From sequence record ON862890.1: a stretch of DNA of 64,000 nucleotides, one strand, 5' to 3'. The translations under genes and the position numbers were made by a program. Source of the DNA: Escherichia phage A221. Of this stretch, positions 91 to 58,957 are shown in pieces. Under the pieces are notes generated by a model. The model had not been told where the DNA came from. It searched no databases and worked only from the letters and a program-made list of their open reading frames with translations. Position 1 is the first letter of the stretch; every line of letters begins with the position of its first letter.

Positions 91-150
91 CAGTTTCAAT
101 AACGGGGCGAGAGGTATTATTGCCCCGTCTACTTATCCGAGGGTTGTACC

Positions 151-375
151 ATGTACTTGAAAAAGATCGTGAAGAAGCCGAAAGCCGGTGTTGCCGAGGT
201 GTGCCTCATCGAGGTTTACGTTGATTCTTGTAACAATGAGCAGTGTTACTTCATGGTCGAGACGATGGTGTATGTTCCAGCCTCTCACCTGAACCGTGAT
301 TTCGTCACAACCGAAAATGTCGTCCGCTGGGAGATTGCAACGCAGTCCGATATCGACGAACACAACATTCTTTGA
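151..375 (+). CDS. hypothetical protein (74 aa)
   Basis: ORF track; GAGGG 7 nt upstream of ATG; preceded by GC hairpin 102-128. Confidence 0.4.
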   Translation: MYLKKIVKKPKAGVAEVCLIEVYVDSCNNEQCYFMVETMVYVPASHLNRDFVTTENVVRWEIATQSDIDEHNIL

Positions 376-392
376 AAGGAAGGATCTATATC

Positions 393-836
393 ATGTGTGA
401 TAAGAATTTCATTTTCATTAGTCCCGCCAAGAAACAGTTCTTCCGTAGCTCCGTTGGGGACAAGGTGGAAGGTTTCCGTAAATTCAAAGATTATCGCCTG
501 GCATGCGGTGATGTTGATTTTCAGAGCTTCGACAATGATCGCCAGGATTTGAACGATGAGGGTTGGACAGAAGTTCCATCCCCACAGTTTATCGATGTCA
601 AGCTGTACTACATGAAGGACAGTGGGAAGTATTATTCAGAGGGTGTGATCAAAATCAACCGTGGGGAGGCCGAGGCCGAACCTGCTAAGTCCTGGATGGA
701 GACTGTGGATAAAATCCGCTATCTGCTCGACTCAGGCAATTTGCCTGGTTTGGTTAAAGGTGCCCGGTACGAGGTCTTCGTGACCGGAGAAGGGCATCCA
801 GGTGGTTATCCACAACTGTTCCGCATTAACAACTGA
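393..836 (+). CDS. hypothetical protein (147 aa)
   Basis: Internal ATG of ORF 372-836 chosen because it carries the conserved AGGA-TCTATATC-ATG initiation motif. Confidence 0.5.
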   Translation: MCDKNFIFISPAKKQFFRSSVGDKVEGFRKFKDYRLACGDVDFQSFDNDRQDLNDEGWTEVPSPQFIDVKLYYMKDSGKYYSEGVIKINRGEAEAEPAKSWMETVDKIRYLLDSGNLPGLVKGARYEVFVTGEGHPGGYPQLFRINN

Positions 837-1101: not shown

Positions 1102-1130
1102 ACGGGGTTTAATTCTTCAATAAACCCCGT
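1102..1130 (+). other. GC-rich hairpin (9-bp stem ACGGGGTTT/AAACCCCGT) overlapping promoter
   Basis: Inverted repeat read directly; no clear T-run so terminator function uncertain. Confidence 0.45.
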
Positions 1131-1135
1131 ATACT
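1107..1135 (+). promoter_or_regulatory. sigma70-like early promoter (GTTTAA-N17-TATACT)
   Basis: Matches the recurring TTTACT-N17-TATACT family; followed by conserved leader element. Confidence 0.4.
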
Positions 1136-1282
1136 TCATTCCATAAGCAGCACAACACTGACTTGAAATGAAGGAACTATCACCACTCTCGTTACAAAGT
1201 AACATTGCAGCAATTTGTTCTAAACCTTTGAACAGGGTATGTTAACCACATACCCTATCCCCTACAAATAGAGGACTTTATC

Positions 1283-7350: not shown

Positions 7351-7541
7351 ATATTACTCTCGTGTGTTGGTTAACATGACATACATATTATTTCGCGTGC
7401 ATGTTTAGACCAAATAAATTATTTTTGCTGTTGAATAAAAACTGCTTTCTTGTTGAACAATGGCGTGGTATTATACGAGTTGTGAGCGTTAGCGAACAAC
7501 GAGTATTTGTTTTATGAGCGAAGCGAATAGGATTAATAAAG

Positions 7542-7598
7542 ATTATTATCTTTAATAAAGGTTATTATCTTTAATAAAGGTTATTATCTTTAATAAAG
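7542..7598. repeat. 3 tandem copies of a 19-bp unit GTTATTATCTTTAATAAAG with palindromic core CTTTAATAAAG
   Basis: Read directly; unit starts at 7543, 7562, 7581 in the 380-bp AT-rich region upstream of gp45. Confidence 0.8.
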
Positions 7599-11281: not shown

Positions 11282-11349
11282 GATATACAGTTATTCACTA
11301 AACAACAGAGGCTATAATGGCCTCTGTTTTCGTATTCTAAGAGGATACC

Positions 11350-12570
11350 ATGAAAGATAAAGCCCTAGACGTCCCGTACTGCGGTGTCCGTGAAGAAAAG
11401 ATAAAGTCGGCCAAACCGGTTCTCAGTCCGACCCATACCAGCCTGTCTTACGAATGGATGCGCGATCGTTATCAGATCCACGTCAAGAAGGACGTCCAGC
11501 GCCTTCCTGCTCCTTGGACTGATAATCCCATATTACGGCAGGTCAAGTTCTGTAACGTCCGGAGAGAGCACGACAGGCAGTCTCTCAACCTGATCAACAA
11601 CATCGTCAACAACGATGCTCTGGGTATGGCCGACAAGATGTTCAACTGCGTGATGTTTCGCATGTTCAACCTCTGGGATCCAATCCAGGCTATCGGCGGC
11701 GCGATGACGATCAAAGAATTCGCCGAGATCAACCTCGATGCAACCCGCGAACGACTTCAGAAGTTCGAGGCCGACGGCGGTAAGGTATTCACCAATGCCT
11801 TCAACACGGGCGGCCTGAAGCAATGCCTGGCTTTCCCTGAGCTGGTTGTCAACCACAAGGAGCAGCGCTTCGGTGGGATGATGGTGAATCTGATCTGTAA
11901 AGATGGTTCAACCCAGAACATGGATTATAAAGAAGCCAAGGCGATAGCCGAAGCAGAACCGGACTTCTACACCATCGAAGGTTGGGAACCGTACATGCCA
12001 ATGCGTGTCATCCGCTCCCTGAAGGCATTCGTCAACAAGTATCCAAATTACTTCCATGACCTGCTGCGCCTTGGTACTCCTTTGGAAGTATACCAGCGCA
12101 TGTATGACGACATCGAAGGGCTTGGTCCATTCCTGGCCTATCAGATCTGGGTAGACTTCACTTACATTCCTGAATATCCTTTCAGTGAGAACCACTTCAC
12201 GGTTGCTGGACCAGGCTGTCGCGCAGGGATCGACCTGATGTTCCAGGACAAAGATGGCATGACGCATGAAGAATGCATCTTCTGGTTGCGGGACAATCAG
12301 GACGCGGTTTATGGCCCTCTTGGGTATAACAGGGAAGAATTTTGGTCTGCGGAAGAGCCTTGGGATCAGTGTATGAATGTGATGAGCATCGAGAATATGG
12401 CATGTGAATTGTCGAAATATACTCGTTGTGTAGAGGCCATACAGCAAGGTAAAAAACCGCGCGGGAAGGTTGGATATGACGGCGGTGGGGAATACAAAAA
12501 GCGCTGTGATGAAGTCGTGCTCAAACGTGGTTCCGTCAATTTGCTGGACCGTTTGAAGAAACCTGAATAA
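11350..12570 (+). CDS. hypothetical protein (406 aa)
   Basis: ORF track; AAGAGGA RBS; no family recognised. Confidence 0.55.
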   Translation: MKDKALDVPYCGVREEKIKSAKPVLSPTHTSLSYEWMRDRYQIHVKKDVQRLPAPWTDNPILRQVKFCNVRREHDRQSLNLINNIVNNDALGMADKMFNCVMFRMFNLWDPIQAIGGAMTIKEFAEINLDATRERLQKFEADGGKVFTNAFNTGGLKQCLAFPELVVNHKEQRFGGMMVNLICKDGSTQNMDYKEAKAIAEAEPDFYTIEGWEPYMPMRVIRSLKAFVNKYPNYFHDLLRLGTPLEVYQRMYDDIEGLGPFLAYQIWVDFTYIPEYPFSENHFTVAGPGCRAGIDLMFQDKDGMTHEECIFWLRDNQDAVYGPLGYNREEFWSAEEPWDQCMNVMSIENMACELSKYTRCVEAIQQGKKPRGKVGYDGGGEYKKRCDEVVLKRGSVNLLDRLKKPE

Positions 12571-12684
12571 AGATTCCCTTTACTTCGTTCTTCAATAACT
12601 CAATCCAGCGTATATTGACCTCACTTAAACGAAGCGCCCTGGCAAACGGGGCGCACATTTGAACTGAAACAGGAAGATTACATC

Positions 12685-18992: not shown

Positions 18993-18998
18993 CAGAAG

Positions 18999-19029
18999 TC
19001 CCCAACAAACGTTGGGGATTTTTACTTTT
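18999..19029 (+). terminator. rho-independent terminator
   Basis: Stem TCCCCAAC/GTTGGGGA followed by TTTTTACTTTT. Confidence 0.65.
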
Positions 19030-19034
19030 AGGGG

Positions 19035-19063
19035 TTTACTTCCTCTAAGGAATGTCCTATTAT
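19035..19063 (+). promoter_or_regulatory. sigma70-like early promoter (TTTACT-N17-TATTAT)
   Basis: Exact 17-bp spacing; directly downstream of terminator. Confidence 0.45.
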
Positions 19064-19114
19064 TCAATAACTGGCGAACGATGGGTTCACCGGGTTGAAA
19101 GGTAAGATTATATC

Positions 19115-19354
19115 ATGAAGAACAAAATGGTCGAAACTTCAGTAGAGATTGATCGCAATTGGGGATTGCTCCGCGCTAAAGGGTTCCGTCGTGTGTATGC
19201 GACCAAAGAAGTCTACGCACAGCGCCGTGACGTTATCATCAGCAAGAAAGGCAAAGAGTGGGTTGCTGAAGAAGTTGATGTCGAGACAGGCATCGTAGGA
19301 AAGGTAAAGGCCAAGGCCGTGATCCTCTTCGCTCTTCTGAAGCACATCAGTTAA
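19115..19354 (+). CDS. hypothetical protein (79 aa)
   Basis: TTGAAAGGTAAGATTATATC-ATG initiation motif. Confidence 0.45.
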   Translation: MKNKMVETSVEIDRNWGLLRAKGFRRVYATKEVYAQRRDVIISKKGKEWVAEEVDVETGIVGKVKAKAVILFALLKHIS

Positions 19355-19413
19355 TTCTATAACTTTGGGCGGGGTATGATTACCCCGTCTATTTGAAACC
19401 AAGAGACTATATC

Positions 19414-19788
19414 ATGAAAAAGTTAATCCTCGCTGTTGCCCTGCTGGGCGCTTCCTTTGCTGCTGTTTCCGCCCCTCCTGTCATCACCGGAGTGTCTACC
19501 AACGGTGTTTATGCTTTCAAGGCGTATGGCCAAGACCTCGTTCTGTATAAGAACGGGAAGATGATTGAGCGCTGCGTATCAGACGACGTGAATCGTGGGA
19601 TCGACAATCAGGGTAGCCCATACGTCCTGGACATCTATTCCTGCTCCAACGGGACGAAGTCCTTTGGCGTCAAGACCTTTGGCAACGTCGCCGACGGTGG
19701 CTGGGGCTTCATGTTCGAAACCCGCAACCACCACCCGGTCAAGACCATGCAAGAAGAGTTCTTGATCTCTGTCGGGGGTACGTTATGA
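19414..19788 (+). CDS. secreted protein (signal peptide)
   Basis: N-terminal MKKLILAVALLGASFAAVSA; conserved AGAGACTATATC-ATG motif. Confidence 0.5.
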   Translation: MKKLILAVALLGASFAAVSAPPVITGVSTNGVYAFKAYGQDLVLYKNGKMIERCVSDDVNRGIDNQGSPYVLDIYSCSNGTKSFGVKTFGNVADGGWGFMFETRNHHPVKTMQEEFLISVGGTL

Positions 19789-20264: not shown

Positions 20265-20714
20265 ATGTTCCTTACATCTTTTATTGACTGGTTGAACATC
20301 ATTAACGGCCTGAGGATTCCTGTTGGGAACCTCGGGCTTTCTCGTTCTTCTATGCCGCAAATCGATGCCGACAAACAAGAAGATTTTCACAAATATCTTG
20401 AAGACAACGGCGTGTCCATAGATGCTGTGCAAGTGCCCATCAAAATGCTTCGTCTCACCCAGAACGAAATCAACAAGATGAAGGTCTGGAAGATCATGAA
20501 GAACATCAGAAATAAGAAACCTATGGGTCGAGTTTGGGTGTCTTCTGACAATTACGTTGTTGACGGTTCTCACCGATTTGTCGCTGCGTTGAACATGGAC
20601 GGCAAACAGCGCATGAAGGTCTACAAAGTTGATTTGCCAGCGATGGAATTTGTTAAACTCGCTAAACAGTTTCAGGGTGTGCGATACAGAACGGTCTCAG
20701 ATTCGAGATACTAA
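20265..20714 (+). CDS. hypothetical protein, possible ParB-like nuclease domain
   Basis: GAGGTG RBS; motif VVDGSHRFVAAL resembles ParB/Srx DGxHR; weak. Confidence 0.45.
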   Translation: MFLTSFIDWLNIINGLRIPVGNLGLSRSSMPQIDADKQEDFHKYLEDNGVSIDAVQVPIKMLRLTQNEINKMKVWKIMKNIRNKKPMGRVWVSSDNYVVDGSHRFVAALNMDGKQRMKVYKVDLPAMEFVKLAKQFQGVRYRTVSDSRY

Positions 20715-20715
20715 T

Positions 20716-21549
20716 ATGGACGTCTATTCAGAACTTATCGAAATAGGAGCGAAACGTCATTTCGTAAACAAATATCTTTCGCTCATTTCTTCTTTTAGTC
20801 ATTACCAAGGCGTCGGGGAGAAGCATCACATATTACCTGTGGCATTGTTCCCCGAATATGCCACGGAATACGAAAACATCGTCAAACTGCCTCATAGGGT
20901 TCATTATATTGCCCATGTGTGTCTTGCTCTTGCGTTACCAGGTTCATGTATGGTAAATGCGATTATGATTTTGAAGCGGTTAGATAGTAGAGTCAACTCA
21001 CACCTGTTTGCGAAAATGCGCAAGAGATTCGCCGAAAGGCTTTCTGTGGTGAATGCAGGGGAAAATAATCCCATGTATGGCAAGAAGAGATCCCAGAAGG
21101 CAAAGAAAAAGACCTCGGAGTCTCTTAGAAATTTTTATAAATCTAAAAGAAAAGAAGATCCAGATTTAAAAGAATTTTTCTCGGAAAGGAATTCTAAAAT
21201 AAAACGGGGAAAAGATCACCATTCTTATGGGAATAAATTGACCAATAATCTTACTCCAGAACAAGAACGATGTAGAATAGAATCGGTCACCAAGACTTCC
21301 CGTGAAACCATGCCCTGGGAGAAGCCAAGATGGAAACCAGAAAGGGACAAATGGTGGTGTTGGGCTGCACATATACACTATCACATATTGAAAGGTAAGA
21401 CGAGAGGGGAAGCCCTGAAACAAGTATTCGGTTCCAATGACGCAGAAATTTGGGCACAGGTTCGGCCAATTATTCTACGGTTGGATAACGGTTGGGACCC
21501 TTTAACTTGCGAAAAATGGGTTAATCGTTATGGGGTGGAATACCAGTAA
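20716..21549 (+). CDS. HNH-family homing endonuclease with NUMOD-like repeats
   Basis: HHILPVALFPEY...LPHRVHYIAH HNH core; ENNPMYGKK and HHSYGNK repeats; AT-rich segment around 21100-21260. Confidence 0.65.
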   Translation: MDVYSELIEIGAKRHFVNKYLSLISSFSHYQGVGEKHHILPVALFPEYATEYENIVKLPHRVHYIAHVCLALALPGSCMVNAIMILKRLDSRVNSHLFAKMRKRFAERLSVVNAGENNPMYGKKRSQKAKKKTSESLRNFYKSKRKEDPDLKEFFSERNSKIKRGKDHHSYGNKLTNNLTPEQERCRIESVTKTSRETMPWEKPRWKPERDKWWCWAAHIHYHILKGKTRGEALKQVFGSNDAEIWAQVRPIILRLDNGWDPLTCEKWVNRYGVEYQ

Positions 21550-21643
21550 ACCACCCGTTTCTGAATACGATAGTTTATTGAATCCCTTTACTCATCATGG
21601 TGAGCCGCCTATCATTTCATCCAATGAAATAAGGAGAATCACC

Positions 21644-23562: not shown

Positions 23563-23618
23563 TCAATAACCTCGGGCGGCTTATCATAAAGCTGCCCTTT
23601 CATTTGAGTGACTATATC

Positions 23619-24281
23619 ATGGAAAAACTTTATTCTATTATCGTCGGTCCTGATCCTGACGGATTATTCTTCGCCCCGTTGTCTTATATTGCCCACGCCC
23701 GTATCGGTAGCTATTACGCATATTGCACACGTGGCCACGACGGTTCCAATATCCTCCATTATAGCCGCCTGAACGATTTCCTGGCACTTCAACCAGAAGA
23801 TGTTGTGCTGGCGCGTCGCGTGTTCATCGACTTCAACGCGATGCACAACAACGAAATCGACGCTCGCTATCATGCCATGCGTTCTATGGAAGGGGGAGAC
23901 TGCATTTATCGTATCGACCATTTTAGTGAGTTTACCGAATGTATTGATTGGTTTATCTCTGATAAAGTGATGGGTGAAAGAATCGTCACAACTCCGTGGG
24001 CGCATGCGGAACAACTTCGTGTGTCTACCGATGCGTACAAAGAAGTCGAAAATCTGTGCAACAAGTTCCGCATCTCGGTGGCCTGTAATCAAGACCTGGG
24101 CGAAGAGATACAATGGACAGCTGAGTCTCCTCATTTCAGTGGCCTGGTGATGACGGCCGAAACCCGTTCCCGTGCTGTTGTCCAGTTAGTACTCTGGGCG
24201 TTCTACCAGCGCACCCCGTTCTCATACATGGGGCAGAAAGAGATTGATGAACTCCTGAAGTCTCATGCGGTGGAGGTGTAA
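23619..24281 (+). CDS. hypothetical protein (220 aa)
   Basis: Internal ATG carrying GTGACTATATC-ATG motif. Confidence 0.5.
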   Translation: MEKLYSIIVGPDPDGLFFAPLSYIAHARIGSYYAYCTRGHDGSNILHYSRLNDFLALQPEDVVLARRVFIDFNAMHNNEIDARYHAMRSMEGGDCIYRIDHFSEFTECIDWFISDKVMGERIVTTPWAHAEQLRVSTDAYKEVENLCNKFRISVACNQDLGEEIQWTAESPHFSGLVMTAETRSRAVVQLVLWAFYQRTPFSYMGQKEIDELLKSHAVEV

Positions 24282-24848: not shown

Positions 24849-25127
24849 ATGAATCGTACTGAATTTGTTGCCCACATTGCTTCGACCCAGAATATCACCA
24901 AAGGCGAAGCGGAGAAAGTAGTGGCATCCTTTATCGACGGTGTTAAAACTGCAGTTGCTGCAGGCGCATCTGTACAGCTGGTCGGCTTCGGTGCGTTCGA
25001 AGTGAAACACCAAGAAGCGCGTGAAGGCCGCAACCCTCTGAACGGCCAGACCATTCAGATTGCGGCGAAAAACGTTGTGAAATTCAAAGTGGGCGAAGGT
25101 CTGAAGAACGCTGCCAACGGCAAGTAA
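24849..25127 (+). CDS. HU/IHF-family DNA-binding protein
   Basis: 92 aa; VQLVGFGAFEV...REGRNPLNGQTIQIAAKNVVKFKVG is a typical HU arm signature. Confidence 0.8.
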   Translation: MNRTEFVAHIASTQNITKGEAEKVVASFIDGVKTAVAAGASVQLVGFGAFEVKHQEAREGRNPLNGQTIQIAAKNVVKFKVGEGLKNAANGK

Positions 25128-33312: not shown

Positions 33313-33317
33313 GGCTG

Positions 33318-33351
33318 AAGGGCACTAAATACCACGTGCCCTTTATCTTTT
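33318..33351 (+). terminator. rho-independent terminator
   Basis: Stem AAGGGCAC/GTGCCCTT followed by TATCTTTT. Confidence 0.55.
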
Positions 33352-34662: not shown

Positions 34663-34675
34663 AAATAATTCAATA

Positions 34676-34700
34676 AAAGGGGCTTTCGCCCCTTTACTTC
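34676..34700 (+). terminator. rho-independent terminator
   Basis: Stem AAAGGGGC/GCCCCTTT, loop TTTC; T-run overlaps next promoter. Confidence 0.6.
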
Positions 34701-34721
34701 TTCAATATCCTTCCCTATACT
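34693..34721 (+). promoter_or_regulatory. sigma70-like early promoter (TTTACT-N17-TATACT)
   Basis: Exact 17-bp spacing; conserved leader follows. Confidence 0.5.
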
Positions 34722-34769
34722 TCATTCCATAAGCAGTACGACACCGACTTGAATAGCAGGAACTATATC

Positions 34770-35045
34770 ATGAAAATTATCCTCGACGCATATATCCGCC
34801 ACGGTCAGAAATACCTGATGGCCAAGGTTTACGACGGCGAAGAATTGATCCACGCCCAGACCGCCCCAGCTGCCCAGCTGCGCGAAATCATGTCACGCGA
34901 CTTCCCTGGCGTTGAAATGGTAGAGCCTGCCAACCAGGCTGAAGTAGACAAAGAGTGGGAGCGCGAATGGAGTCCAGCGGCTATCGCTCGGGCTGAAAAG
35001 AATTGGTCTAACCGCGAAAACGCAAACCGCCCTTTCCGCCGTTAA
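34770..35045 (+). CDS. hypothetical protein (91 aa)
   Basis: CAGGAACTATATC-ATG motif. Confidence 0.5.
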   Translation: MKIILDAYIRHGQKYLMAKVYDGEELIHAQTAPAAQLREIMSRDFPGVEMVEPANQAEVDKEWEREWSPAAIARAEKNWSNRENANRPFRR

Positions 35046-35067
35046 TTTGAACCGAAGGAACTATATC

Positions 35068-35403
35068 ATGACACAACTCAAGAACTTCACCGCCGATGAC
35101 ATGTTTGCCTTCCAGGGTGCTGAGCACTTTGCTGACGGCTCCGTACCTCGCATCTACTACTTCTCCGACGAAGAAATGGAAGATTTCTTCTCCCTGATGG
35201 AAAAGGACTACGAACCAGACGACTTCGTTTATATCATCCATCACGCTGAAGGACTGACATTGGGTTGGACGGCCAACAACGAACCAGAAGAAGTAAACTT
35301 TCCTGAAGGTATCATGTCAGAGCGCGTCGAATATCTACTGGAAGCTCTGGACCCCCACACCCTCCCGCTCTGGGCGATGTCTGTAGCCCAAGTTCAAAAA
35401 TAA
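35068..35403 (+). CDS. hypothetical acidic protein (111 aa)
   Basis: AAGGAACTATATC-ATG motif. Confidence 0.5.
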   Translation: MTQLKNFTADDMFAFQGAEHFADGSVPRIYYFSDEEMEDFFSLMEKDYEPDDFVYIIHHAEGLTLGWTANNEPEEVNFPEGIMSERVEYLLEALDPHTLPLWAMSVAQVQK

Positions 35404-38199: not shown

Positions 38200-38223
38200 T
38201 CATCGAAAGCCCCTTCGGGGGCT

Positions 38224-38231
38224 TATAAATA
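38224..38231 (+). promoter_or_regulatory. T4-type late promoter core TATAAATA
   Basis: Only exact plus-strand TATAAATA found; 24 nt upstream of ATG 38255; preceded by UUCG-loop hairpin. Confidence 0.45.
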
Positions 38232-38254
38232 ACTGAAATCCCGAGGAGATTAAG

Positions 38255-38560: not shown

Positions 38561-38600
38561 GTGAAACCATCAAGATGACTCTGGTCAAACAGTGATTACA

Positions 38601-38632
38601 ATCCCCCTAAATACAGGGGGATTTCTTTTTCT
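38601..38632 (+). terminator. rho-independent terminator
   Basis: Stem ATCCCCCT/AGGGGGAT followed by TTCTTTTTCT. Confidence 0.7.
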
Positions 38633-38999: not shown

Positions 39000-39242
39000 G
39001 TCAATACGAAATAAAGGCATATAATTTGCTCATTATTCACCGAAAGGAAAGGACAATGAGCAAAATCTTTATCCCGTCACATGCGCAGCTACATGAATCT
39101 CTTGGACAACTTCGCCCACTTCGAGCACAACACGGCTGGTAAACAAATATTTTGTATAGAGGGCTTGTCGACCACTGTGTATAGCTCAAAGTCGTGATGT
39201 AGACTATACTGTGACCGAAGTGTTCCAGAGGCAGAAGATCTA

Positions 39243-40532: not shown

Positions 40533-40556
40533 AGGCCTCATTCGACGAGGCCTTTT
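40533..40556 (+). terminator. rho-independent terminator
   Basis: Stem AGGCCTC/GAGGCCT followed by TTTT. Confidence 0.55.
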
Positions 40557-40569
40557 AAAATACTTCAAA

Positions 40570-40589
40570 AATAATTTTTAAAAATTATT
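40570..40589. repeat. perfect 20-bp AT palindrome AATAATTTTTAAAAATTATT
   Basis: Self-complementary, between terminator and promoter. Confidence 0.8.
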
Positions 40590-40598
40590 GAAAAAGAC

Positions 40599-40627
40599 TT
40601 TACTCTTCAATAATGATGCACTATTAT
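40599..40627 (+). promoter_or_regulatory. sigma70-like early promoter (TTTACT-N17-TATTAT)
   Basis: Exact 17-bp spacing, upstream of a codon-optimised gene. Confidence 0.5.
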
Positions 40628-40700
40628 AGTTCACATAGGGCGGCAACACACCGCCGAATGAAAAGTGAAACGCACCAACTACATTATGAGGAATTACATC

Positions 40701-41189
40701 ATGGCTACTACCAAAACTCTGATCACCAACGGCACCATCTCTTTCGAACTGAACACCGAAGTTGCTAAAGTTGAAATGTTCCGCATCGCTCAGGCGGCTG
40801 GCTTCACTGGTGGCAAAACTTCCTTCATGAACCTGCTGAACGGTAAAGTGAAATCGACTAACGGCTTCACCCTGGTAGAGCAGGTTGTGGTTGACAAAGC
40901 TGTGGTTGCTAAGACTGCTGACAAAGTTGGTATGCTGAAAAACCTGGGTCACGACATCCACATTGTCGAAGCAAGCACCGAAACTTACGGCACCATCGTA
41001 GTCGGTAAAGGTCGCATCCAGCTGAACCCGCTGAACAACGGTTCCTTCTCTGTGATGGTCTTCCCTAAGAAGGGGTATGACAACACCGACATCGTGAAAG
41101 CTGTTGGCGGCGAAGCAAAAGCTCAGTACGTCAAAATGGGTAAACTGAGCACCGACGCAGTTGAAGCTCTGGTGAGCAAACTGGCCTAA
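40701..41189 (+). CDS. abundant small protein of unknown function (162 aa)
   Basis: GAGGAATTACATC-ATG motif; codon choice typical of highly expressed genes. Confidence 0.6.
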   Translation: MATTKTLITNGTISFELNTEVAKVEMFRIAQAAGFTGGKTSFMNLLNGKVKSTNGFTLVEQVVVDKAVVAKTADKVGMLKNLGHDIHIVEASTETYGTIVVGKGRIQLNPLNNGSFSVMVFPKKGYDNTDIVKAVGGEAKAQYVKMGKLSTDAVEALVSKLA

Positions 41190-43113: not shown

Positions 43114-43196
43114 GTAACTCGCCAACCCTCCCCGCCGCCTTCAATCTACGAGGGCGGCGTATAATAAAACCTGCGTAAACAAACCCGAGGAACACC

Positions 43197-45549: not shown

Positions 45550-46653
45550 ATGAGCGAACAGAAACAATTCTCCGTATTCGACCCAAGCTCGGACAACACT
45601 GGTCTACCGTTCTTCGGTGACCCAGTGAGCATTCAGCGTTACGATGTCGTGGCCTGGCCATTCGTACAGAAGTGGTATGAGAAAGGTCTCAGTCAGTTCT
45701 GGCGTCCTGAAGAGGTGGACATCACCAAGGACAAGGCAGACTTTGCTACCCTGAACGAAGCCGAGAAGCATGTCTACTTCAGCAACCTGAAGCGCCAGAC
45801 CATGCTGGACTCTATCCAGGGTGCGGCTCCGTTCGAGGCGTTTGGTCCATGGGCGTCTACCCCTGAAATGCAGTTTGCTGTCCTTGAATGGACGCGCCAG
45901 GAAGCCATTCACTCTTTATCGTACACCCACATTTTGCGCAACACTGTGAACGATCCAGGTATCGTGTTTGACCACGTACTGGATGTTGCAGAGATCGTGG
46001 ACTGTGCTCACCAGATCAGTGTGTACTACGATGACATGGTACAGTACAGTGGCATGCGTATGGCTGGACGCATCTTCACCCGAGAAGATCTGATGAATGC
46101 CAAACGCGCATTCTGGCGTGCTCTGTTTGCTGCCAACACACTGGAAGGCATCCGCTTCTACGTGTCCTTTGCATGCTCTTGGGCATTCACACAGTTTCAG
46201 AAGAAGATGGAAGGCAATGCCAAAATCATTCGACAGATCGCCCGTGATGAGCAGGATCACCTGATCCTGACCCAGACGCTGCTAAACCGCCTGCCTGGTA
46301 TGGACCCCGACTTTGCAATCATCCGTGAGGAACTGCGTGGTGAGATGACCCAGATGTTCCTGGACGTGGTCCATCAGGAGAAGGAGTGGGCGAACTACCT
46401 ATTCAAAGACGGTTCCATCCTGGGGCTGAACGCCAAGATCCTTCATCAGATGGTAGACTGGCTGGCAACCCACCGGATGGGCGCTATCGGGCATCCATAT
46501 CCCGGTGAACCTCGCAAGGAGAACCCAGTCCCATGGATTAATGACTGGCTAGATAATAAGGCAATGCAGTACGCGTTGCAGGAAGCGGAAGCTCCTGATT
46601 ATCTGATGGGTGTACTGACTGGTTCGGTATCCGATGGCCTCAAATTCGCTTAA
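45550..46653 (+). CDS. nrdB: ribonucleotide reductase class Ia small subunit
   Basis: 367 aa directly after nrdA; ferritin-like layout. Confidence 0.85.
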   Translation: MSEQKQFSVFDPSSDNTGLPFFGDPVSIQRYDVVAWPFVQKWYEKGLSQFWRPEEVDITKDKADFATLNEAEKHVYFSNLKRQTMLDSIQGAAPFEAFGPWASTPEMQFAVLEWTRQEAIHSLSYTHILRNTVNDPGIVFDHVLDVAEIVDCAHQISVYYDDMVQYSGMRMAGRIFTREDLMNAKRAFWRALFAANTLEGIRFYVSFACSWAFTQFQKKMEGNAKIIRQIARDEQDHLILTQTLLNRLPGMDPDFAIIREELRGEMTQMFLDVVHQEKEWANYLFKDGSILGLNAKILHQMVDWLATHRMGAIGHPYPGEPRKENPVPWINDWLDNKAMQYALQEAEAPDYLMGVLTGSVSDGLKFA

Positions 46654-46662
46654 AGGTGAGAA

Positions 46663-46887
46663 ATGATTACGATCTATTCCAAACAAGGTTGCGCTCAGTG
46701 TGTAACAGCCGAAAATCTGTGCAAAATGAAAGGGCTGGAACACAAGATCCTCAAGCTGGACAAAGATTACCGGCTGGAAGAACTTCAGCAGTTGACGGGT
46801 AAGCCGCGCGTGTCGATGCCTGTAATCGTCCTCGCTGACCAGACCGTGACCGACGTTAATGGACTCGCCGCCAGCATTAAACGCTGA
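46663..46887 (+). CDS. nrdH: NrdH-like glutaredoxin
   Basis: MITIYSKQGCAQC (CxQC redox motif); 74 aa; adjacent to nrdAB. Confidence 0.7.
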   Translation: MITIYSKQGCAQCVTAENLCKMKGLEHKILKLDKDYRLEELQQLTGKPRVSMPVIVLADQTVTDVNGLAASIKR

Positions 46888-46893
46888 CAAGCC

Positions 46894-46920
46894 AAAGCCC
46901 CTCATTGAGGGGCTTTACTT
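46894..46920 (+). terminator. rho-independent terminator
   Basis: 10-bp stem AAAGCCCCTC/GAGGGGCTTT, 3-nt loop; T-run overlaps next promoter. Confidence 0.65.
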
Positions 46921-46942
46921 CTATAATCCCTGCGCTTATACT
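46914..46942 (+). promoter_or_regulatory. sigma70-like early promoter (TTTACT-N17-TATACT)
   Basis: Exact 17-bp spacing. Confidence 0.5.
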
Positions 46943-46992
46943 TCCCAGTAATTCATTGGCATTCGCCACAAATTGAAAGCGGGAACTATATC

Positions 46993-47454
46993 ATGACAAA
47001 CAAAGTACTCACCAACCCACTGCACAACTTCGGTTACATTCAACTCCCTCTGGTGATCGACACCCTGTACGCCGACGACAAAGAAGAGATCTGCTGGTCA
47101 CCCACCGCACTGATTGAACGCGAAATCTTCAAGTCTGTTGTTGATGTCATGTTCCGTATCGGTCGCAATGGACCTCTGGTCTACCTCGGCAAGGTGACTG
47201 AGTTGAAGACAAGCCACAACGAACGCTTCCTTCGTATCGATACAACGGGGTGCTCTCATCAGGACTTCAACACATTGCGCAATTATGTTCTGGTCAACCG
47301 CCCGGTCAGTCAACACCGCCCGTATCTGACTTCAATGCACATCGACAATTTCATCACCGACGTGCACCTCCGCGCCGAAACCCTCCATGAAGAGGAAACA
47401 GGCCGAGCTATCGACACAGTCTTAAATATGGTTGTGATCACCCTGGCGGAGTAG
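46993..47454 (+). CDS. hypothetical protein (153 aa)
   Basis: CGGGAACTATATC-ATG motif. Confidence 0.5.
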   Translation: MTNKVLTNPLHNFGYIQLPLVIDTLYADDKEEICWSPTALIEREIFKSVVDVMFRIGRNGPLVYLGKVTELKTSHNERFLRIDTTGCSHQDFNTLRNYVLVNRPVSQHRPYLTSMHIDNFITDVHLRAETLHEEETGRAIDTVLNMVVITLAE

Positions 47455-47459
47455 TCCTC

Positions 47460-47810
47460 ATGCAAGATTACAAAGAGTTGAGAATGCAGCTGGCAGTCCC
47501 CATACCAGACAAAGGTTTATACCAAAACCTGCATCATCTGATGTCTGAAGGGCATATGCTGCCTTTGCGGTCTGAGGATGGATCTCAGATCGGTTATGCC
47601 ACCAGTTGCGTAGTCTACGACAAACCAGGAGACGAAGAGCGCGGACAGGTCAGTGTGGGTTCCAGATTTGTGTTGAACAAGAAGCTGGAGGGATCAGTGG
47701 TTGACGTCAGGCCGATGATTATCCTCTACCAATTCAACGGTAAAGAGATGTTCAGGTTATTGAGCCACTTCATGTTAGTCGTGGCTCAGGCATTCAGGAC
47801 GAAATTCTAA
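47460..47810 (+). CDS. hypothetical protein (116 aa)
   Basis: GGAG RBS; stop overlaps convergent gp25 stop. Confidence 0.45.
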   Translation: MQDYKELRMQLAVPIPDKGLYQNLHHLMSEGHMLPLRSEDGSQIGYATSCVVYDKPGDEERGQVSVGSRFVLNKKLEGSVVDVRPMIILYQFNGKEMFRLLSHFMLVVAQAFRTKF

Positions 47811-51239: not shown

Positions 51240-51764
51240 ATGCGCGGATTTTGTTTTAGTGAAATAGGCAAAGAACTGTCTATACAATATCCCGATCCCA
51301 ACACAGACTTCTTTATCTTCCTGACCGATTATGCCAAGAAAGAGAATATCCTCCATGTGGCAATGAAACACGAAGATTATAAGTTCTGCCGGCTGGGTGT
51401 CAAAGACCTGCTGCGTTATGGTCTACAAGTGGTCATCGTAGACCCATACTACAGCCCTATCGACGATGAAGAAGTTCTGCCCGTATATGTTCACCGCAAC
51501 ATCAATACATTGGAAAAGCATTATCCAGATTGTATTGTCATCGGCGAACTCATCTCGTATTATCATCGTGTGCGAAAGCTGGAACAGATTAAAAGTTATT
51601 TTCAAGAGGGTGTTGGTCAATATAAGATGAATGCCCTTAGTAGTGGATGGATGGTGCTGTCTTCAGCAGGCAGTGCTGACTATATTAAGATGCGTGTCTA
51701 CCAATACGTTGTGGAGCGCGATTATGAACTGGAGAAAAGTAATGCAAAACGAAAAACCCGTTGA
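51240..51764 (+). CDS. hypothetical protein (174 aa)
   Basis: Second ATG chosen for 6-nt spacing from GAGGA. Confidence 0.45.
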   Translation: MRGFCFSEIGKELSIQYPDPNTDFFIFLTDYAKKENILHVAMKHEDYKFCRLGVKDLLRYGLQVVIVDPYYSPIDDEEVLPVYVHRNINTLEKHYPDCIVIGELISYYHRVRKLEQIKSYFQEGVGQYKMNALSSGWMVLSSAGSADYIKMRVYQYVVERDYELEKSNAKRKTR

Positions 51765-56748: not shown

Positions 56749-56810
56749 TTCTATAACCCGTTCCGAGGGATAATTCGTGAACAGGTAATCCTAAATGATG
56801 AGGCTATAAC

Positions 56811-57948: not shown

Positions 57949-57977
57949 TTTACATCTATGAAAATGCAGTATATTAT
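57949..57977 (+). promoter_or_regulatory. sigma70-like early promoter (GTTTACA-N17-TATTAT)
   Basis: Strong match to the recurring promoter family, upstream of a codon-optimised gene. Confidence 0.5.
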
Positions 57978-58045: not shown

Positions 58046-58882
58046 ATGTCATATATTCTTCATGTGGAATCTGGAACCAAAATTGAAATTGAAGGCAAAG
58101 ACGTTGCTGCTATTCAGGCTGAAATCAAAGAAGCAGGTCTGATCATCGGAAACGTTACCCTGCGCCGTATGGTTGAAGGTGTTCTTCAGGCTGCCAACGG
58201 CTTCGAACTGATTGAAGGTCTGAGCGCCGAAGAGAAGGAAGAAACCCAGCAGGCTCTGGCGCAAGCCCAAGAGCAAGCCCAAGCTGAAGTATCCCTGAAA
58301 GTCGCTGAAACCGTTGATACTGAAGCACCGATCTCTGCCGATGCATGTGTAGCCCCAGTGTCCGACGCCCCGGTAGACGCGGTTGAAGATGCCGTCAACG
58401 CGGCGCTGGAAGAAGGCAATCAGCCGTCCGACGCGAAAATCGGTTCCTTGGCGTCTTCGATGCTGAAAGAAGCATCGAAGGGTAAGACCCTGACCCCGCA
58501 GGCAGCGCTGGTAGAGCGTAAACGCCGTCACACCAAACGTGAGGAAATGGTTGACTTGGCTCGCGCTTCTAATCACGGTCCGGTCTTGGCGGCGATTGAA
58601 GCTGGTGTTGTCCCCGGCGTGTTCCTGAGCTACGTGAACCCAGACATGCGTTGGTTCCAGTTCCCGGTCACCGAACTGGCTAACCCTGAAAACCTTCATG
58701 CTCGCACCAATACGTATGTCGACGTTGCGCCTATCGTTTCCGGTGGCTGGGGCTTCAGTCTGTACGTGAACGGCAAGTCCTTCACCAAACGTCAGAAGAT
58801 CAAAGAGTCTGATGCTGAGTCTCTGGTTAAGGCGATCAATGAATGGCTTCCACAGGCTCTGGCTGAAGCGAAAGCTGTGTAA
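58046..58882 (+). CDS. abundant early protein of unknown function (278 aa)
   Basis: Promoter upstream; codon-optimised; Ala/Glu-rich N-terminal half. Confidence 0.55.
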   Translation: MSYILHVESGTKIEIEGKDVAAIQAEIKEAGLIIGNVTLRRMVEGVLQAANGFELIEGLSAEEKEETQQALAQAQEQAQAEVSLKVAETVDTEAPISADACVAPVSDAPVDAVEDAVNAALEEGNQPSDAKIGSLASSMLKEASKGKTLTPQAALVERKRRHTKREEMVDLARASNHGPVLAAIEAGVVPGVFLSYVNPDMRWFQFPVTELANPENLHARTNTYVDVAPIVSGGWGFSLYVNGKSFTKRQKIKESDAESLVKAINEWLPQALAEAKAV

Positions 58883-58957
58883 ATTTAAGTTCAGAAACTG
58901 TTCAATAGATGAAGGGGTTGCTATAATAGCAGCTCCTTTTGTTTATCGGAGCAGTTT

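What the first reader, a model, noticed from the sequence alone, without database searches (positions are those of the whole stretch)
34676..34721. Repeated terminator-promoter cassettes with promoter family TTTACT-N17-TAT(A/T)(C/A)T
At 1102-1135, 19035-19063, 34676-34721, 40533-40627, 46894-46942 and 57949-57977 a GC hairpin is followed at once by TTTACT, often TTTACTtCTTCAATA, then a -10-like hexamer at exactly 17 bp. This looks like modular early transcription units, each insulated by a terminator whose T-run overlaps the next promoter's -35.
Basis: seen in the sequence. Interest (0 to 1): 0.45.

Follow-up and report, generated by a model that had tools for sequence, protein, structure and literature searches.

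The report
Terminator-promoter cassettes in an Ackermannviridae phage
The repeated hairpin-plus-TTTACT sequences are real, family-wide conserved regulatory cassettes of a ViI-like (Ackermannviridae) phage that look like the "PeSL" early promoter/terminator modules of T4-type phages, so they are a useful but largely expected find.

Summary
The window is an Agtrevirus-like Ackermannviridae phage, 97-99% identical to fGh-Ecl02, YX22 and AV101. The motif is real. TTTACT-N17-TATWMT occurs 4 times, all on the + strand, against 0.02 expected. Two looser copies are 57949 (TTTACA) and 1108 (TTTAAT, spacer 16). In the complete genome of the closest relative the family has 7 members: all intergenic, all on the gene strand, none before structural genes. 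Across four genera both hexamers and the spacer length are kept while spacer sequence drifts, and hairpin stems are kept by compensatory changes.

The stated anatomy holds only in part. The hairpin abuts or overlaps the -35 at 34693 and 46914 only. It lies 11 nt upstream at 19035 and 45 nt upstream at 40599, encloses the -35 at 1108, and is absent at 57949.

Best reading: sigma70-type early promoters with the T4 early consensus (TTTACW-N17-TAYWAT), placed behind leaky intrinsic terminators. Each carries a conserved 5'UTR and start region. This matches PeSL cassettes. Three gene gains or losses between close relatives have junctions inside cassette repeats. No transcript data exist. Some orthologous sites already carry in silico annotations in Ag3 and LIMEstone1.

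A second, possibly newer class also appeared: TTCAATA-N13-TATAAT promoters embedded in hairpins.

The parts
34676..34695 (+). Cassette C: GC hairpin (AAAGGGGC-TTTC-GCCCCTTT), 14 nt after the stop codon of the upstream gene. Its last 3 nt are the first 3 nt of the -35.
   Evidence: Fold -13.5 kcal/mol, z -4.2. The stem is invariant and the loop is free to vary (TTTC, AAAC, TTTT, AAAA, TTCG) across relatives and genera.
34693..34721 (+). Cassette C promoter: -35 TTTACT (34693-34698), 17-bp spacer containing TTCAATA, -10 TATACT (34716-34721). Predicted start about 34728-34730.
   Evidence: The orthologues in CBA120, 0507-KN2-1 and Ds23CZ keep TTTACT and TATA(C/A)T.
34722..34772 (+). Cassette C conserved 5'UTR (CATAAGCAGTACGAC...) and start region CTTGAATAGCAGGAACTATATCATG (34748-34772).
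   Evidence: 87% identical to 1127-1180 (family D9). The 109-nt cassette is 80-99% identical in 272 phage records, about 2 copies per genome. Invariant blocks are shown.
34770..35045 (+). Small gene (91 aa, phrog_5704, unknown function) bounded by two copies of the start-region repeat. It is precisely absent in YX22, AV101 and fGh-Ecl02.
   Evidence: (16 exact / 27 imperfect nt flanking repeat).
35046..35070 (+). Second copy of the start-region repeat (TTTGAACCGAAGGAACTATATCATG). It is the right-hand partner of the deletion junction.
   Evidence: (family D1).
46894..46942 (+). Cassette E: hairpin 46894-46916 (AAGCCCCTC-ATT-GAGGGGCTT), -35 TTTACT 46914-46919, -10 TATACT 46937-46942. Gene start at 46993.
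   Evidence: Fold -16.6 kcal/mol, z -4.15. In four genera the hexamers are invariant and the spacer is 17 bp with diverged sequence. The stem changes in a compensatory way to GCCCCC-AAAA-GGGGGC in 0507-KN2-1. Listed as terminator Torf088 in the Ag3 paper.
18994..19063 (+). Cassette B: hairpin 18994-19023, T-rich linker containing a first TTTACT (19021), -35 TTTACT 19035-19040, -10 TATTAT 19058-19063. Gene start at 19115.
   Evidence: Fold -18.5 kcal/mol, z -4.0. Hyperplastic spot: CECAV050 has an extra ORF here flanked by two such cassettes (26 exact / 74 imperfect nt repeat). Ag3 has a different ORF flanked by TTTACT promoters.
40533..40655 (+). Cassette D: terminator-like hairpin 40533-40553 plus TTTT, A+T-rich palindromic stretch 40554-40598, -35 TTTACT 40599-40604, -10 TATTAT 40622-40627, 5'UTR hairpin 40639-40655. 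Gene start at 40701.
   Evidence: z -3.2 and -2.7. Conserved in four genera, with variable loops in the UTR hairpin. The same -10 is annotated 'putative middle promoter' in LIMEstone1. Ag3 Porf100 uses another register.
1102..1180 (+). Cassette A (degraded): hairpin 1102-1130 enclosing -35-like TTTAAT (1108-1113) and a 16-bp spacer, -10 TATACT 1130-1135, then the paralogous 5'UTR up to GGAACTAT. The gene it served is destroyed by two microhomology deletions.
   Evidence: z -5.3, no T-run; CECAV050 and Ag3 keep TTTACT and a 282-nt gene.
57949..57977 (+). Site F: -35 TTTACA 57949-57954 and -10 TATTAT 57972-57977 (or TATATT 57970-57975), with TTCAATAA 9 nt upstream. No GC hairpin. Gene start at 58046.
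   Evidence: z -1.8. TTTACA is conserved in four genera and the -10 register shifts by 1-2 nt. Annotated as an early promoter in Ag3 (Porf069) and LIMEstone1 (GTTTAC/TATTAT).
12579..12616 (+). Related site: TTTACT (12579) lies too far from the -10 (26 bp). However, TTCAATA (12591-12597)-N13-TATATT (12611-12616) fits the second promoter class. 5'UTR hairpin at 12634-12654; gene start at 12685.
   Evidence: (z -3.9).
19358..19416 (+). Hairpin with a -10-like loop (GGCGGGGTATGATTACCCCG) plus TTTGAAA and the start region. In relatives two copies of this 49-nt unit flank a 510-bp ADP-ribosyltransferase-like gene that the window lacks.
   Evidence: z -4.4; 20 exact nt repeat; phrog_832, E 2.9e-14.

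Best explanation
These are composite regulatory cassettes of a ViI-like (Ackermannviridae, Agtrevirus-type) phage.

Anatomy of a full cassette, in order:
- an A+T-rich lead-in, often containing TTCAATAA;
- a GGGG...CCCC hairpin just after the stop codon of the upstream gene;
- a sigma70-type promoter: -35 TTTAC(T/A), 17-bp spacer (16 in some copies), -10 TATACT, TATTAT or TATAAT;
- a conserved 5'UTR of about 40-65 nt;
- a conserved translation start region, TTGAA-N-AGGAACTATATC-ATG.

Proposed mechanism (inferred):
1. RNA polymerase arriving from upstream makes the hairpin and partly terminates at the short U-run UUUACUUCUU.
2. On the DNA the same TTT is the start of the -35.
3. Unmodified host sigma70 holoenzyme re-initiates about 7 nt after the -10 and transcribes a small gene of unknown function plus the replication and nucleotide-metabolism genes behind it.

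Because the cassettes are repeated, the phage's own recombination system can delete, insert or swap the small genes between two copies without disturbing their neighbours. This is the role proposed for PeSL elements of T4-type phages.

Shown here: the motif, its enrichment, its strand and location bias, cross-genus conservation with compensatory stem changes, and three indels whose junctions lie in cassette repeats.

Inferred, not shown: promoter activity, its timing, termination efficiency, and the recombination mechanism.
For: Enrichment. There are 4 exact hits against 0.02 expected. In the complete genome of fGh-Ecl02 there are 7 hits against 0.37 expected. All 7 are on one strand, all lie in gaps between annotated CDS, none is upstream of a structural gene.

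Conservation. At the orthologues of 34693, 40599, 46914 and 57949 in Kuttervirus CBA120, Taipeivirus 0507-KN2-1 and Limestonevirus Ds23CZ, TTTAC(T/A) is kept. So are the -10 and the 16-17 bp spacing, while spacer bases differ.

Hairpins. Five hairpins fold with z -3.2 to -5.3. Stems are kept while loops vary. One stem is replaced in a compensatory way (GCCCCTC/GAGGGGC to GCCCCC/GGGGGC).

Match to known consensus. The pattern equals the TTTACW-N17-TAYWAT reported for T4/PST PeSL promoters. PeSLs are described as a stem-loop just upstream of the promoter, with an A+T-rich lead-in and with the SD and ATG at the 3' end (PMC4122927).

Recombination. Of about 17 indels or replacements against five relatives, only three have flanking direct repeats of 16-26 exact nt (27-74 imperfect). 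All three repeats are cassette sequence and all three bound small accessory genes. PeSL crossovers were mapped between the -10, the SD and the ATG (PMC2839356). The junction at 34773/35044 lies in that same zone.

Distribution. The 109-nt cassette is present about twice per genome in 272 Ackermannviridae records at 80-99% identity.

Separate late class. A distinct late-type motif, (C/A/T)TAAATA(C/A), sits before structural genes. The TTTACT class is therefore not the late class.
Against: No transcript 5' or 3' ends exist for any Ackermannviridae phage in the searched literature.

The U-tract after the two abutting hairpins is only UUU followed by ACUUCUU. The terminator scan did not list them on the + strand.

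Hairpin position is not uniform. It abuts the -35 at 2 sites, lies 11 and 45 nt upstream at 2 sites, encloses the -35 at 1 site and is absent at 1 site. The 1102 hairpin lacks a T-run and is unlikely to terminate.

Only 7 such promoters exist in about 153 kb, and none serves the leftward early genes (rIIA, rIIB, DNA polymerase, topoisomerase). This cannot be the only early promoter type.

LIMEstone1's depositors called the orthologue of 40599 'middle'.

Phage DNA of this family carries hypermodified thymidine; a 5-hmdU DNA kinase is encoded at 11350-12570. This could alter recognition of T-rich hexamers.

Only 3 of about 17 indels involve cassettes.
Confidence: 0.68

Rival explanations
1. The TTTACT sites are not immediate-early sigma70 promoters. 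They are delayed or middle promoters that need a phage-made factor, or they are switched off by one. The conserved TTCAATA in or next to them would be the factor's binding site.
For: The LIMEstone1 record labels the orthologue of 40599 a 'putative middle promoter'. TTCAATA, or TTCTATA, lies within or beside every class member, inside the spacer in most. The same word at a fixed distance (N13) from a -10 defines a second promoter-like class without a -35. The start of the 5'UTR (CATAAGCAGnACnAC) is invariant across genera and paralogues, which would suit an operator.
Against: The -35 and -10 hexamers at the optimal 17-bp spacing are good sigma70 elements by themselves and equal the T4 early consensus (PMC4122927). 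The TTCAATA position relative to the hexamers varies: about 9 nt upstream of the -35, inside the spacer, or right after the -10. It is lost in the CBA120 and 0507-KN2-1 orthologues of 46914. MotA and AsiA homologues are reported absent from these phages (PMC3184105).
Confidence: 0.15
2. The hairpins are not terminators. They are RNA 3'-end or 5'-end stabilisers, processing signals, or protein or recombination targets on DNA. Their adjacency to promoters would only reflect packing of signals into short intergenic gaps.
For: U-tracts are short and the + strand terminator scan misses the two abutting hairpins. Hairpin placement relative to the promoter is variable, and at 1102 the hairpin has no T-run. 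Hairpins also occur inside 5'UTRs at 40639-40655 and 12634-12654. The PeSL authors themselves speculated that GGGG...CCCC stems might be protein targets (PMC2839356).
Against: The hairpins sit 10-30 nt after stop codons. They are followed by T-rich sequence at 4 of 5 sites. Stems are conserved with free loops and one compensatory replacement. The Ag3 and LIMEstone1 papers independently scored the same hairpins as Rho-independent terminators.
Confidence: 0.14
3. The repeats are neutral remnants of duplicated sequence, or selfish mobile DNA, without regulatory function.
For: Two cassettes (1108 and 34693) are clear paralogues, 84-88% identical over about 80 nt. Cassette A in the window has lost its gene.
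Against: Non-paralogous members share only the hexamers and the spacing, not the spacer sequence. All members are strand-correct and intergenic. The cassette is conserved at 80-99% across genera, which is higher than the 75-77% seen for the NrdB-glutaredoxin region.
Confidence: 0.03

Closest known systems
PeSL (promoter-early stem-loop) cassettes of T4-type phages (Arbiol, Comeau & Krisch 2010, PMC2839356; Comeau et al. 2014, PMC4122927)
   Same: Same part order: A+T-rich lead-in, GGGG...CCCC stem-loop just upstream of a sigma70-like promoter, then the SD and ATG of a small ORF of unknown function. Same promoter consensus as the T4/PST set (TTTACW-N17-TAYWAT). Both occur next to genes that differ between close relatives. 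Here one deletion junction lies in the shared ribosome-site/start-codon segment; PeSL crossovers were mapped between the -10, the SD and the ATG. Degraded copies occur in both.
   Different: The host family is different: Ackermannviridae, not the T4-like myoviruses (named Tquatrovirinae in PMC4122927). There are far fewer copies, 7 per genome. Hairpin position is less regular. The 5'UTR is long and very strongly conserved. Only 3 of about 17 indels are cassette-bounded. Mini-circles were not and cannot be tested here. No paper in the searched library links PeSLs to this family.
T4 early promoters (host sigma70, -35 GTTTAC, -10 TATAAT-like, A-rich upstream region)
   Same: -35 TTTAC(T/A), preceded by G in 4 of 7 copies. 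17-bp spacer, TAnnnT -10, A+T-rich upstream DNA, and location ahead of small non-structural genes.
   Different: The -10 is mostly TATACT or TATTAT. No activity data exist. An Alt/Mod-like ADP-ribosyltransferase gene (phrog_832) is present in close relatives but absent from this window.
In silico promoter and terminator annotations in related genomes (Ag3 Table S2, PMC3121705; LIMEstone1 GenBank HE600015, PMC3296691)
   Same: Ag3 Porf069 and the LIMEstone1 'early promoter' are the orthologues of 57949. Ag3 Torf088 is the 46894 hairpin. Ag3 Porf138 is a TTTACT-N16-TATAAT site. The LIMEstone1 'middle promoter' shares the -10 of 40599.
   Different: Those lists treat the sites singly and partly in other registers or classes. 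They do not recognise a TTTACT family, the composite cassette, its 5'UTR and start-region repeat, or its link to gene gain and loss. The CBA120 authors state they could not find early promoters by informatics (PMC3184105).
T4 middle (MotA/AsiA-dependent) promoters. Relevant only to the second class found in passing.
   Same: A conserved box about 12-13 bp upstream of a sigma70 -10, occupying roughly -32 to -25, with no conserved -35 hexamer.
   Different: The box sequence is TTCAATA(A), not TGCTTtA. No MotA or AsiA homologue is reported in these phages. The -10 often sits in the loop of a terminator-like hairpin.

Membership tests
PeSL cassette (T4-type phages) | Stem-loop located just upstream of the cassette's own promoter | tested here: met
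   The hairpin abuts or overlaps the -35 at 34693 and 46914. It lies 11 nt upstream at 19035 and 45 nt upstream at 40599. The feature is not met at 57949, and at 1102 the hairpin encloses the -35.
PeSL cassette (T4-type phages) | Sigma70-like early promoter, -35 / N17 / -10 (TTTACW-N17-TAYWAT in T4/PST) | tested here: met
   consensus taken from PMC4122927.
PeSL cassette (T4-type phages) | A+T-rich region upstream of the promoter | tested here: met
   aaaataattcaataaaa precedes the 34676 hairpin. A 45-nt A+T stretch lies at 40554-40598. ttttcaataaaaagtag precedes 57949.
PeSL cassette (T4-type phages) | Shine-Dalgarno sequence and start codon of the downstream ORF form the conserved 3' end of the element | tested here: met
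   The repeat family TTGAA-N-AGGAACTATATCATG occurs at 371, 19392, 34748, 35046 and 46981. ACTATATCATG occurs 5 times on + and 0 times on -.
PeSL cassette (T4-type phages) | Sits next to ORFs that differ between close relatives; recombination between two copies removes or inserts the ORF between them | tested here: met
   Three events have junctions inside cassette repeats: 34773/35044, 19368/19417 and 18994/19068. All other indels have at most 8 nt of microhomology.
PeSL cassette (T4-type phages) | Excised mini-circles detectable by inverse PCR in infected cells | not testable with these tools
   Needs an experiment (method in PMC2839356).
PeSL cassette (T4-type phages) | Described range: T4-like myoviruses | tested here: not met
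   The window is Ackermannviridae/Aglimvirinae. No paper was found that links PeSLs to this family.
Sigma70-dependent (T4-type early) promoter | Two hexamers matching the consensus at 17 +/- 1 bp, on the strand of the downstream gene, in non-coding DNA | tested here: met
   (9 of 12 matches to TTGACA/TATAAT).
Sigma70-dependent (T4-type early) promoter | Initiation by unmodified host holoenzyme right after infection | not testable with these tools
   No transcript data found.
Intrinsic (Rho-independent) terminator | Stable GC-rich stem-loop downstream of a stop codon | tested here: met
   (z -3.2 to -5.3 at five sites); positions.
Intrinsic (Rho-independent) terminator | U-rich tract directly after the stem | tested here: inconclusive
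   The tails are TTTACTTCTT (34693, 46914), TTTTTACTTTT (19020) and TTTTAAAA (40554); there is none at 1131. The scan did not call 34676 or 46894 on the + strand.
T4 middle (MotA-type) promoter | MotA box TGCTTtA centred near -30 in place of a -35 | tested here: not met
   The class has a good -35 at 17 bp and no TGCTT. LIMEstone1's 'middle' label rests on a bare CTT.

The most novel reading that the evidence does not exclude
The TTTACT cassettes may be one half of a two-tier system that has not been described for this family.

The word TTCAATA(A) is strongly over-represented in intergenic DNA. In fGh-Ecl02 it occurs 19 times on + and 12 times on -, against my own uniform-composition estimate of about 2 per strand, which no tool computed. 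At a fixed 13-bp distance from a TAT(A/T)AT hexamer it defines a second promoter-like class. There are 11 hits at N13 against 0-2 at every other spacing from 8 to 19, and 0.27 in shuffles.

This class has four features:
- It has no conserved -35 hexamer.
- It serves genes on both strands.
- It is conserved across genera.
- Its -10 very often lies in the loop of a terminator-like hairpin, or just after one. Upstream transcripts would then form the hairpin and stop, while transcripts started inside it would lack the 5' arm and read on.

The geometry, a box at about -32 to -25, is that of T4 MotA-dependent middle promoters. The box is different, however, and no MotA or AsiA is known in these phages.

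The same word lies inside the spacer of most TTTACT promoters. One unknown phage DNA-binding factor could therefore activate the embedded class and at the same time shut off the TTTACT class. That would give an early-to-middle switch by a new sigma-appropriation-like or repressor/activator mechanism.
Probability: 0.12. Interest if true: 0.75.

Novelty: new member of a known kind. Interest (0 to 1): 0.4.

Why it matters
Early and middle transcription signals of Ackermannviridae are essentially uncharted, although these ViI-like phages are widely used for biocontrol and detection. The CBA120 authors could not find early promoters by informatics. A 2024 family review does not contain the words promoter or transcription.

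A conserved, testable promoter family with predicted start sites gives a direct handle on the early programme. It also identifies which small unknown genes are expressed first.

Showing that PeSL-like cassettes exist outside the T4-like phages would extend that model of modular gene shuffling. Here the cassettes bound natural gain and loss of accessory genes, among them an RNA-polymerase ADP-ribosyltransferase-like gene. The cassettes also mark safe insertion points for engineering these phages.

Tried and rejected
- Rfam scan of the whole window: no family reached its threshold. The conserved 5'UTR is not a known RNA.
- The 672-aa protein behind the 12579 site is annotated in one relative as a 'putative DNA-directed RNA polymerase', which would have changed the promoter picture. 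It has no Pfam hit and no PDB sequence hit. It sits next to a 5-hmdU DNA kinase, so the idea was dropped.
- Pfam and PHROGs on the first genes behind each promoter gave only families of unknown function. No MotA-, AsiA- or regulator-like protein was found among them.
- Literature searches for Ackermannviridae transcription start sites, transcriptomes or PeSLs found nothing usable.
- An exact-pattern scan of IMG/VR for the 34693-type cassette returned only 11 loci. Nine lie on 152-161 kb contigs and two on short fragments (5.9 and 9.6 kb). A distant BLAST returned only Ackermannviridae plus one spurious Vibrio phage hit. There is thus no sign that the cassette moves between phage families.
- I considered that TTTACT is conserved only as the terminator's U-tract. 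This is rejected because at 40599 and 57949 it is conserved with no hairpin next to it and stays 17 bp from the -10.
- I considered that most indels would be cassette-mediated. This is rejected. Most are homing-endonuclease insertions (for example 20697-21551, NUMOD3), intragenic deletions or replacements with at most 8 nt of microhomology.
- My greedy ORF model mislabelled some promoter sites as coding. These were corrected against the deposited CDS tables.
Full report
IDENTITY OF THE WINDOW. A 4-kb piece around the finding matches 277 phage records. The best matches are Escherichia, Salmonella and Enterobacter phages of the family Ackermannviridae at 96-99% identity, and Shigella phage Ag3 at 93.6%. 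Annotated relatives show that the + strand carries a long run of replication, recombination and nucleotide-metabolism genes. These include gp45/44/62, RegA, UvsW, helicases, an HU-like protein, RNase H, the gp55 late sigma factor, gp46/47, primase, NrdAB, glutaredoxin, PhoH, endolysin, gp32, thymidylate synthase and UvsX. Small genes of unknown function are interspersed among them. A few baseplate and tail genes lie on the - strand. G+C content is about 49%.

CHECK OF THE OBSERVATION. The exact pattern TTTACT-N17-TAT[AT][AC]T occurs four times (19035, 34693, 40599, 46914). All four are on the + strand, against 0.02 expected. A relaxed pattern gives 7 hits on + and 1 on -, against 1-2 expected.

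Two listed sites deviate. Site 57949 is TTTACA-N17-TATTAT. Site 1108 is TTTAAT with a 16-bp spacer in the window, and TTTACT in relatives.

Five of the six sites have a stable hairpin, with z from -3.2 to -5.3. Site 57949 does not, with z of -1.8. The hairpin touches the -35 only at 34693 and 46914, where the stem's last TTT is the TTT of TTTACT. At 19035 it ends 11 nt upstream. At 40599 it ends 45 nt upstream, with an A+T-rich stretch between. At 1102 it encloses the -35 and spacer and has no T-run.

The motif and its enrichment are therefore confirmed. The uniform 'hairpin at once, exactly 17 bp' anatomy is only partly right.

GENOME-WIDE PICTURE. I read the full 153-kb genome of the closest relative, fGh-Ecl02, which is 99.1% identical to window 45900-47800 (genome). 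TTTAC[AT]-N16/17-TA[TC][AT][ACT]T occurs 7 times against 0.37 expected. All 7 are on the strand of the downstream gene and all lie in gaps between deposited CDS. None is in the structural-gene blocks, and six fall in the stretch equivalent to the window.

Structural genes are instead preceded by a different, strongly over-represented word, CTAAATAC or ATAAATAC or TATAAATA. This is a T4-late-like element.

CONSERVATION. At the orthologous gaps in Kuttervirus CBA120, Taipeivirus 0507-KN2-1 and Limestonevirus Ds23CZ, all four sites examined keep TTTAC(T/A), a TATA(C/A)T, TATTAT or TATA(T/G)T -10, and a 16-17 bp spacer. The spacer letters diverge. After glutaredoxin, for example, the spacer is TCTATAATCCCTGCGCT in the window, TTTGAAACCTTTCCGCC in CBA120 and TTTGAAAAAGCCAGACC in 0507-KN2-1.

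Hairpin stems are invariant while loops change freely. One stem is rebuilt in a compensatory way, from GCCCCTC/GAGGGGC to GCCCCC/GGGGGC.

The 109-nt unit 34664-34772 is found in 272 records, essentially all of them Ackermannviridae. It occurs about twice per genome at 80-99% identity. That is higher than the 75-77% seen for the NrdB-glutaredoxin region against the same genera.

An alignment of both paralogues across genera shows invariant blocks: ATTCAAT, TTTAnTTnTTCAATA, TATAnTTC, CATAAGCAGnACnAC, TGAA and GGAA. The CATAAGCAG block is the predicted start of the mRNA. That start region is itself a repeat family. ACTATATCATG occurs 5 times on + and 0 times on -.

WHAT IT RESEMBLES. Comeau, Arbiol and Krisch describe PeSLs in T4-type phages. 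These consist of an A+T-rich lead-in, a stem-loop (often GGGG...CCCC) just upstream of a sigma70-like early promoter, and then the SD and ATG of a small ORF. The promoter consensus for the T4/PST pair is TTTACW-N17-TAYWAT. PeSLs lie next to indels between close relatives, and crossovers were mapped between the -10, the SD and the ATG (PMC4122927; PMC2839356). Every sequence-level feature is met here. See the membership table.

GENE GAIN AND LOSS. I compared the window with five relatives by local BLAST. About 17 distinct indels or replacements were found. Only three have long flanking direct repeats, and all three repeats are cassette sequence.

(i) The 91-aa gene at 34770-35045 is precisely absent in YX22, AV101 and fGh-Ecl02. 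The junction lies inside the repeated AGGAACTATATCATGA, so the next gene is fused to the upstream promoter and UTR. Ds23CZ has the same arrangement, with the cassette feeding straight into an ATGACA start, although no junction analysis was run for it.

(ii) At 18994-19095, CECAV050 carries an extra small ORF between two TTTACT-N17-TATTAT cassettes (26 exact, 74 imperfect nt repeat). Ag3 carries a different ORF at the same spot, also between two TTTACT promoters.

(iii) At 19368-19417, relatives carry a 510-bp gene between two copies of a 49-nt hairpin-plus-start-region unit. Its product matches phrog_832, RNA polymerase ADP-ribosylase, at E 2.9e-14. The window lacks this gene.

The other events have at most 8 nt of microhomology. 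They include homing-endonuclease insertions (20697-21551 is unique to the window and carries a NUMOD3 motif), intragenic deletions and divergent replacements. The recombination role is therefore real but accounts for a minority of the plasticity.

Cassette A at 1102 is a degraded copy. Its gene has been destroyed by two microhomology deletions.

PRIOR ANNOTATION. The Ag3 paper lists eight sigma70-like promoters and forty terminators. Porf069 is the orthologue of 57949. Torf088 is the 46894 hairpin. Porf138 is a TTTACT-N16-TATAAT site. Porf100 covers the 40599 region in another register.

The LIMEstone1 GenBank record marks the 57949 orthologue as 'putative early promoter' (GTTTAC / TATTAT). 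It marks the 40599 orthologue as 'putative middle promoter', with the same -10 but a bare CTT upstream. At the 34693 orthologue it marks an unrelated 'middle promoter'. At 46914 it marks only a terminator.

The CBA120 paper says early promoters could not be identified by informatics and that MotA and AsiA are absent. A 2024 family review does not contain the words promoter or transcription. No paper links PeSLs to this family, and no transcriptome was found. Parts of the finding are thus already in databases as single predictions. The family, the composite cassette and its link to gene shuffling are not.

MECHANISM AND ITS LIMITS. The most likely reading, at confidence 0.68, is a leaky intrinsic terminator followed by a host-sigma70 early promoter of the T4 type. 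It launches a conserved leader and a small accessory gene, and doubles as a portable homology patch.

The weak points are these. The U-tract is short, and the scan did not flag the two abutting hairpins on the + strand. Hairpin placement is irregular. There are only 7 copies, and none serves the leftward early genes. Timing is unknown. The family's thymidine hypermodification may matter; a 5-hmdU kinase is encoded at 11350-12570. The rivals are a factor-dependent or middle class (0.15), hairpins that are not terminators (0.14) and neutral repeats (0.03).

A SECOND CLASS FOUND ON THE WAY. TTCAATAA occurs 9 times on + and 3 times on - in the window, and 19 times on + and 12 times on - in fGh-Ecl02. 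My own uniform-composition estimate, which no tool computed, is about 1 and about 2 per strand respectively.

Measured from TTCAATA, -10-like hexamers pile up at exactly 13 bp. There are 8 such cases against 0.05 expected. With mild degeneracy there are 11 at N13 and 0-2 at every other spacing from 8 to 19, with 0.27 in shuffles.

These sites lie on both strands, co-oriented with the genes. They have no conserved -35 hexamer and no TGn. Usually the -10 is in the loop of a GC hairpin followed by a T-run, or directly after the stem. Window examples are 95-120, 43140-43165 (upstream of NrdA), 56749-56774, 58901-58927 (N14) and 12591-12616. Two are conserved across genera with compensatory stem changes.

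The box occupies about -32 to -25, where the MotA box sits in T4 middle promoters. The same word lies inside the spacer of most TTTACT promoters. This suggests, but does not show, a factor-dependent middle class and an early-to-middle switch. It is stated as the novel case at 0.12.

VERDICT. This is a real and conserved regulatory cassette family. Its anatomy is partly as described. It is best filed as a new member of the PeSL / T4-early-promoter kind in a family where this had not been described. Interest is moderate (0.4). It rests on comparative evidence only, and some of its parts already exist as single predictions in Ag3 and LIMEstone1.

Noticed in passing
window 95-120, 12591-12616, 43140-43165, 56749-56774, 58901-58927; degenerate copies at 11297, 19358, 23565, 53907: A second promoter-like class: TTCAATA (or TTC[AT]AT[ACG]) exactly 13 bp upstream of TAT(A/T)AT. 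It has no conserved -35, and the -10 usually sits in the loop of, or right after, a GC hairpin with a T-run. The spacing profile is very sharp: 11 hits at N13 against 0-2 at other spacings in the relative's genome. The class is conserved across genera.
   Followed up: partly
window 33325, 38607, 2245, 5442 (+); about 49913 and about 56030 (-): CTAAATAC, ATAAATAC and TATAAATA. This is the most over-represented 8-mer family in the relative's genome and lies about 30-45 nt upstream of structural genes. It is probably the gp55-type late promoter. At 33316-33345 and 38600-38623 it lies in a hairpin loop. At 38212-38236 a hairpin is followed at once by TATAAATA.
   Followed up: partly
window 7533-7598: Three head-to-tail copies of a 19-bp unit (TTAATAAAGGTTATTATCT) in the 381-bp divergent gap upstream of the sliding-clamp gene. 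It could be an iteron-like or regulator-binding array.
   Followed up: no
window 371-395, 19392-19416, 23607-23626, 34748-34772, 35046-35070, 46981-47000: A conserved translation start region, TTGAA-N(5-10)-(A)GGAACTATATC-ATG, shared by unrelated small genes. ACTATATCATG occurs 5 times on + and 0 times on -. The meaning of the TTGAA and TATATC parts is unknown; RegA/RegB-type control is one possibility.
   Followed up: partly
window 34722-34747 and 1136-1161: The predicted first 15-25 nt of the transcript (CATAAGCAG(T/C)AC(G/A)AC) are invariant in both paralogous cassettes and in four genera. This is more conserved than nearby coding DNA and is unexplained.
   Followed up: partly
window 19368-19417 (empty site); L013:29952-30458 in fGh-Ecl02: Close relatives carry here a 168-aa protein matching phrog_832, RNA polymerase ADP-ribosylase (E 2.9e-14), flanked by 49-nt direct repeats. 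The window lacks it. There is no Pfam hit.
   Followed up: partly
window 20697-21551: An 856-bp insertion unique to the window relative to five relatives. It carries an ORF with a NUMOD3 motif and is probably a homing endonuclease.
   Followed up: partly
window 1180-1209 and 39069-39081: Two gene remnants. The gene behind cassette A lost its start codon and about 215 bp through two microhomology deletions. A 612-nt gene intact in all relatives has a 414-bp internal deletion in the window.
   Followed up: yes
window 51376-51403 (- strand): A near-perfect sigma70 consensus (TTGACA-N16-TATAAT) inside a + strand gene. It points toward the baseplate hub gene about 185 nt away.
   Followed up: no
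window 11350-12570 and 24849-25127: A 5-hmdU DNA kinase (PF18723, E 3e-81) marks the thymidine-hypermodification pathway. An HU-like DNA-binding protein (PF00216) is annotated 'transcription factor 1' in YX22. It recalls SPO1 TF1, which to my knowledge binds hmU DNA at early promoters.
   Followed up: no
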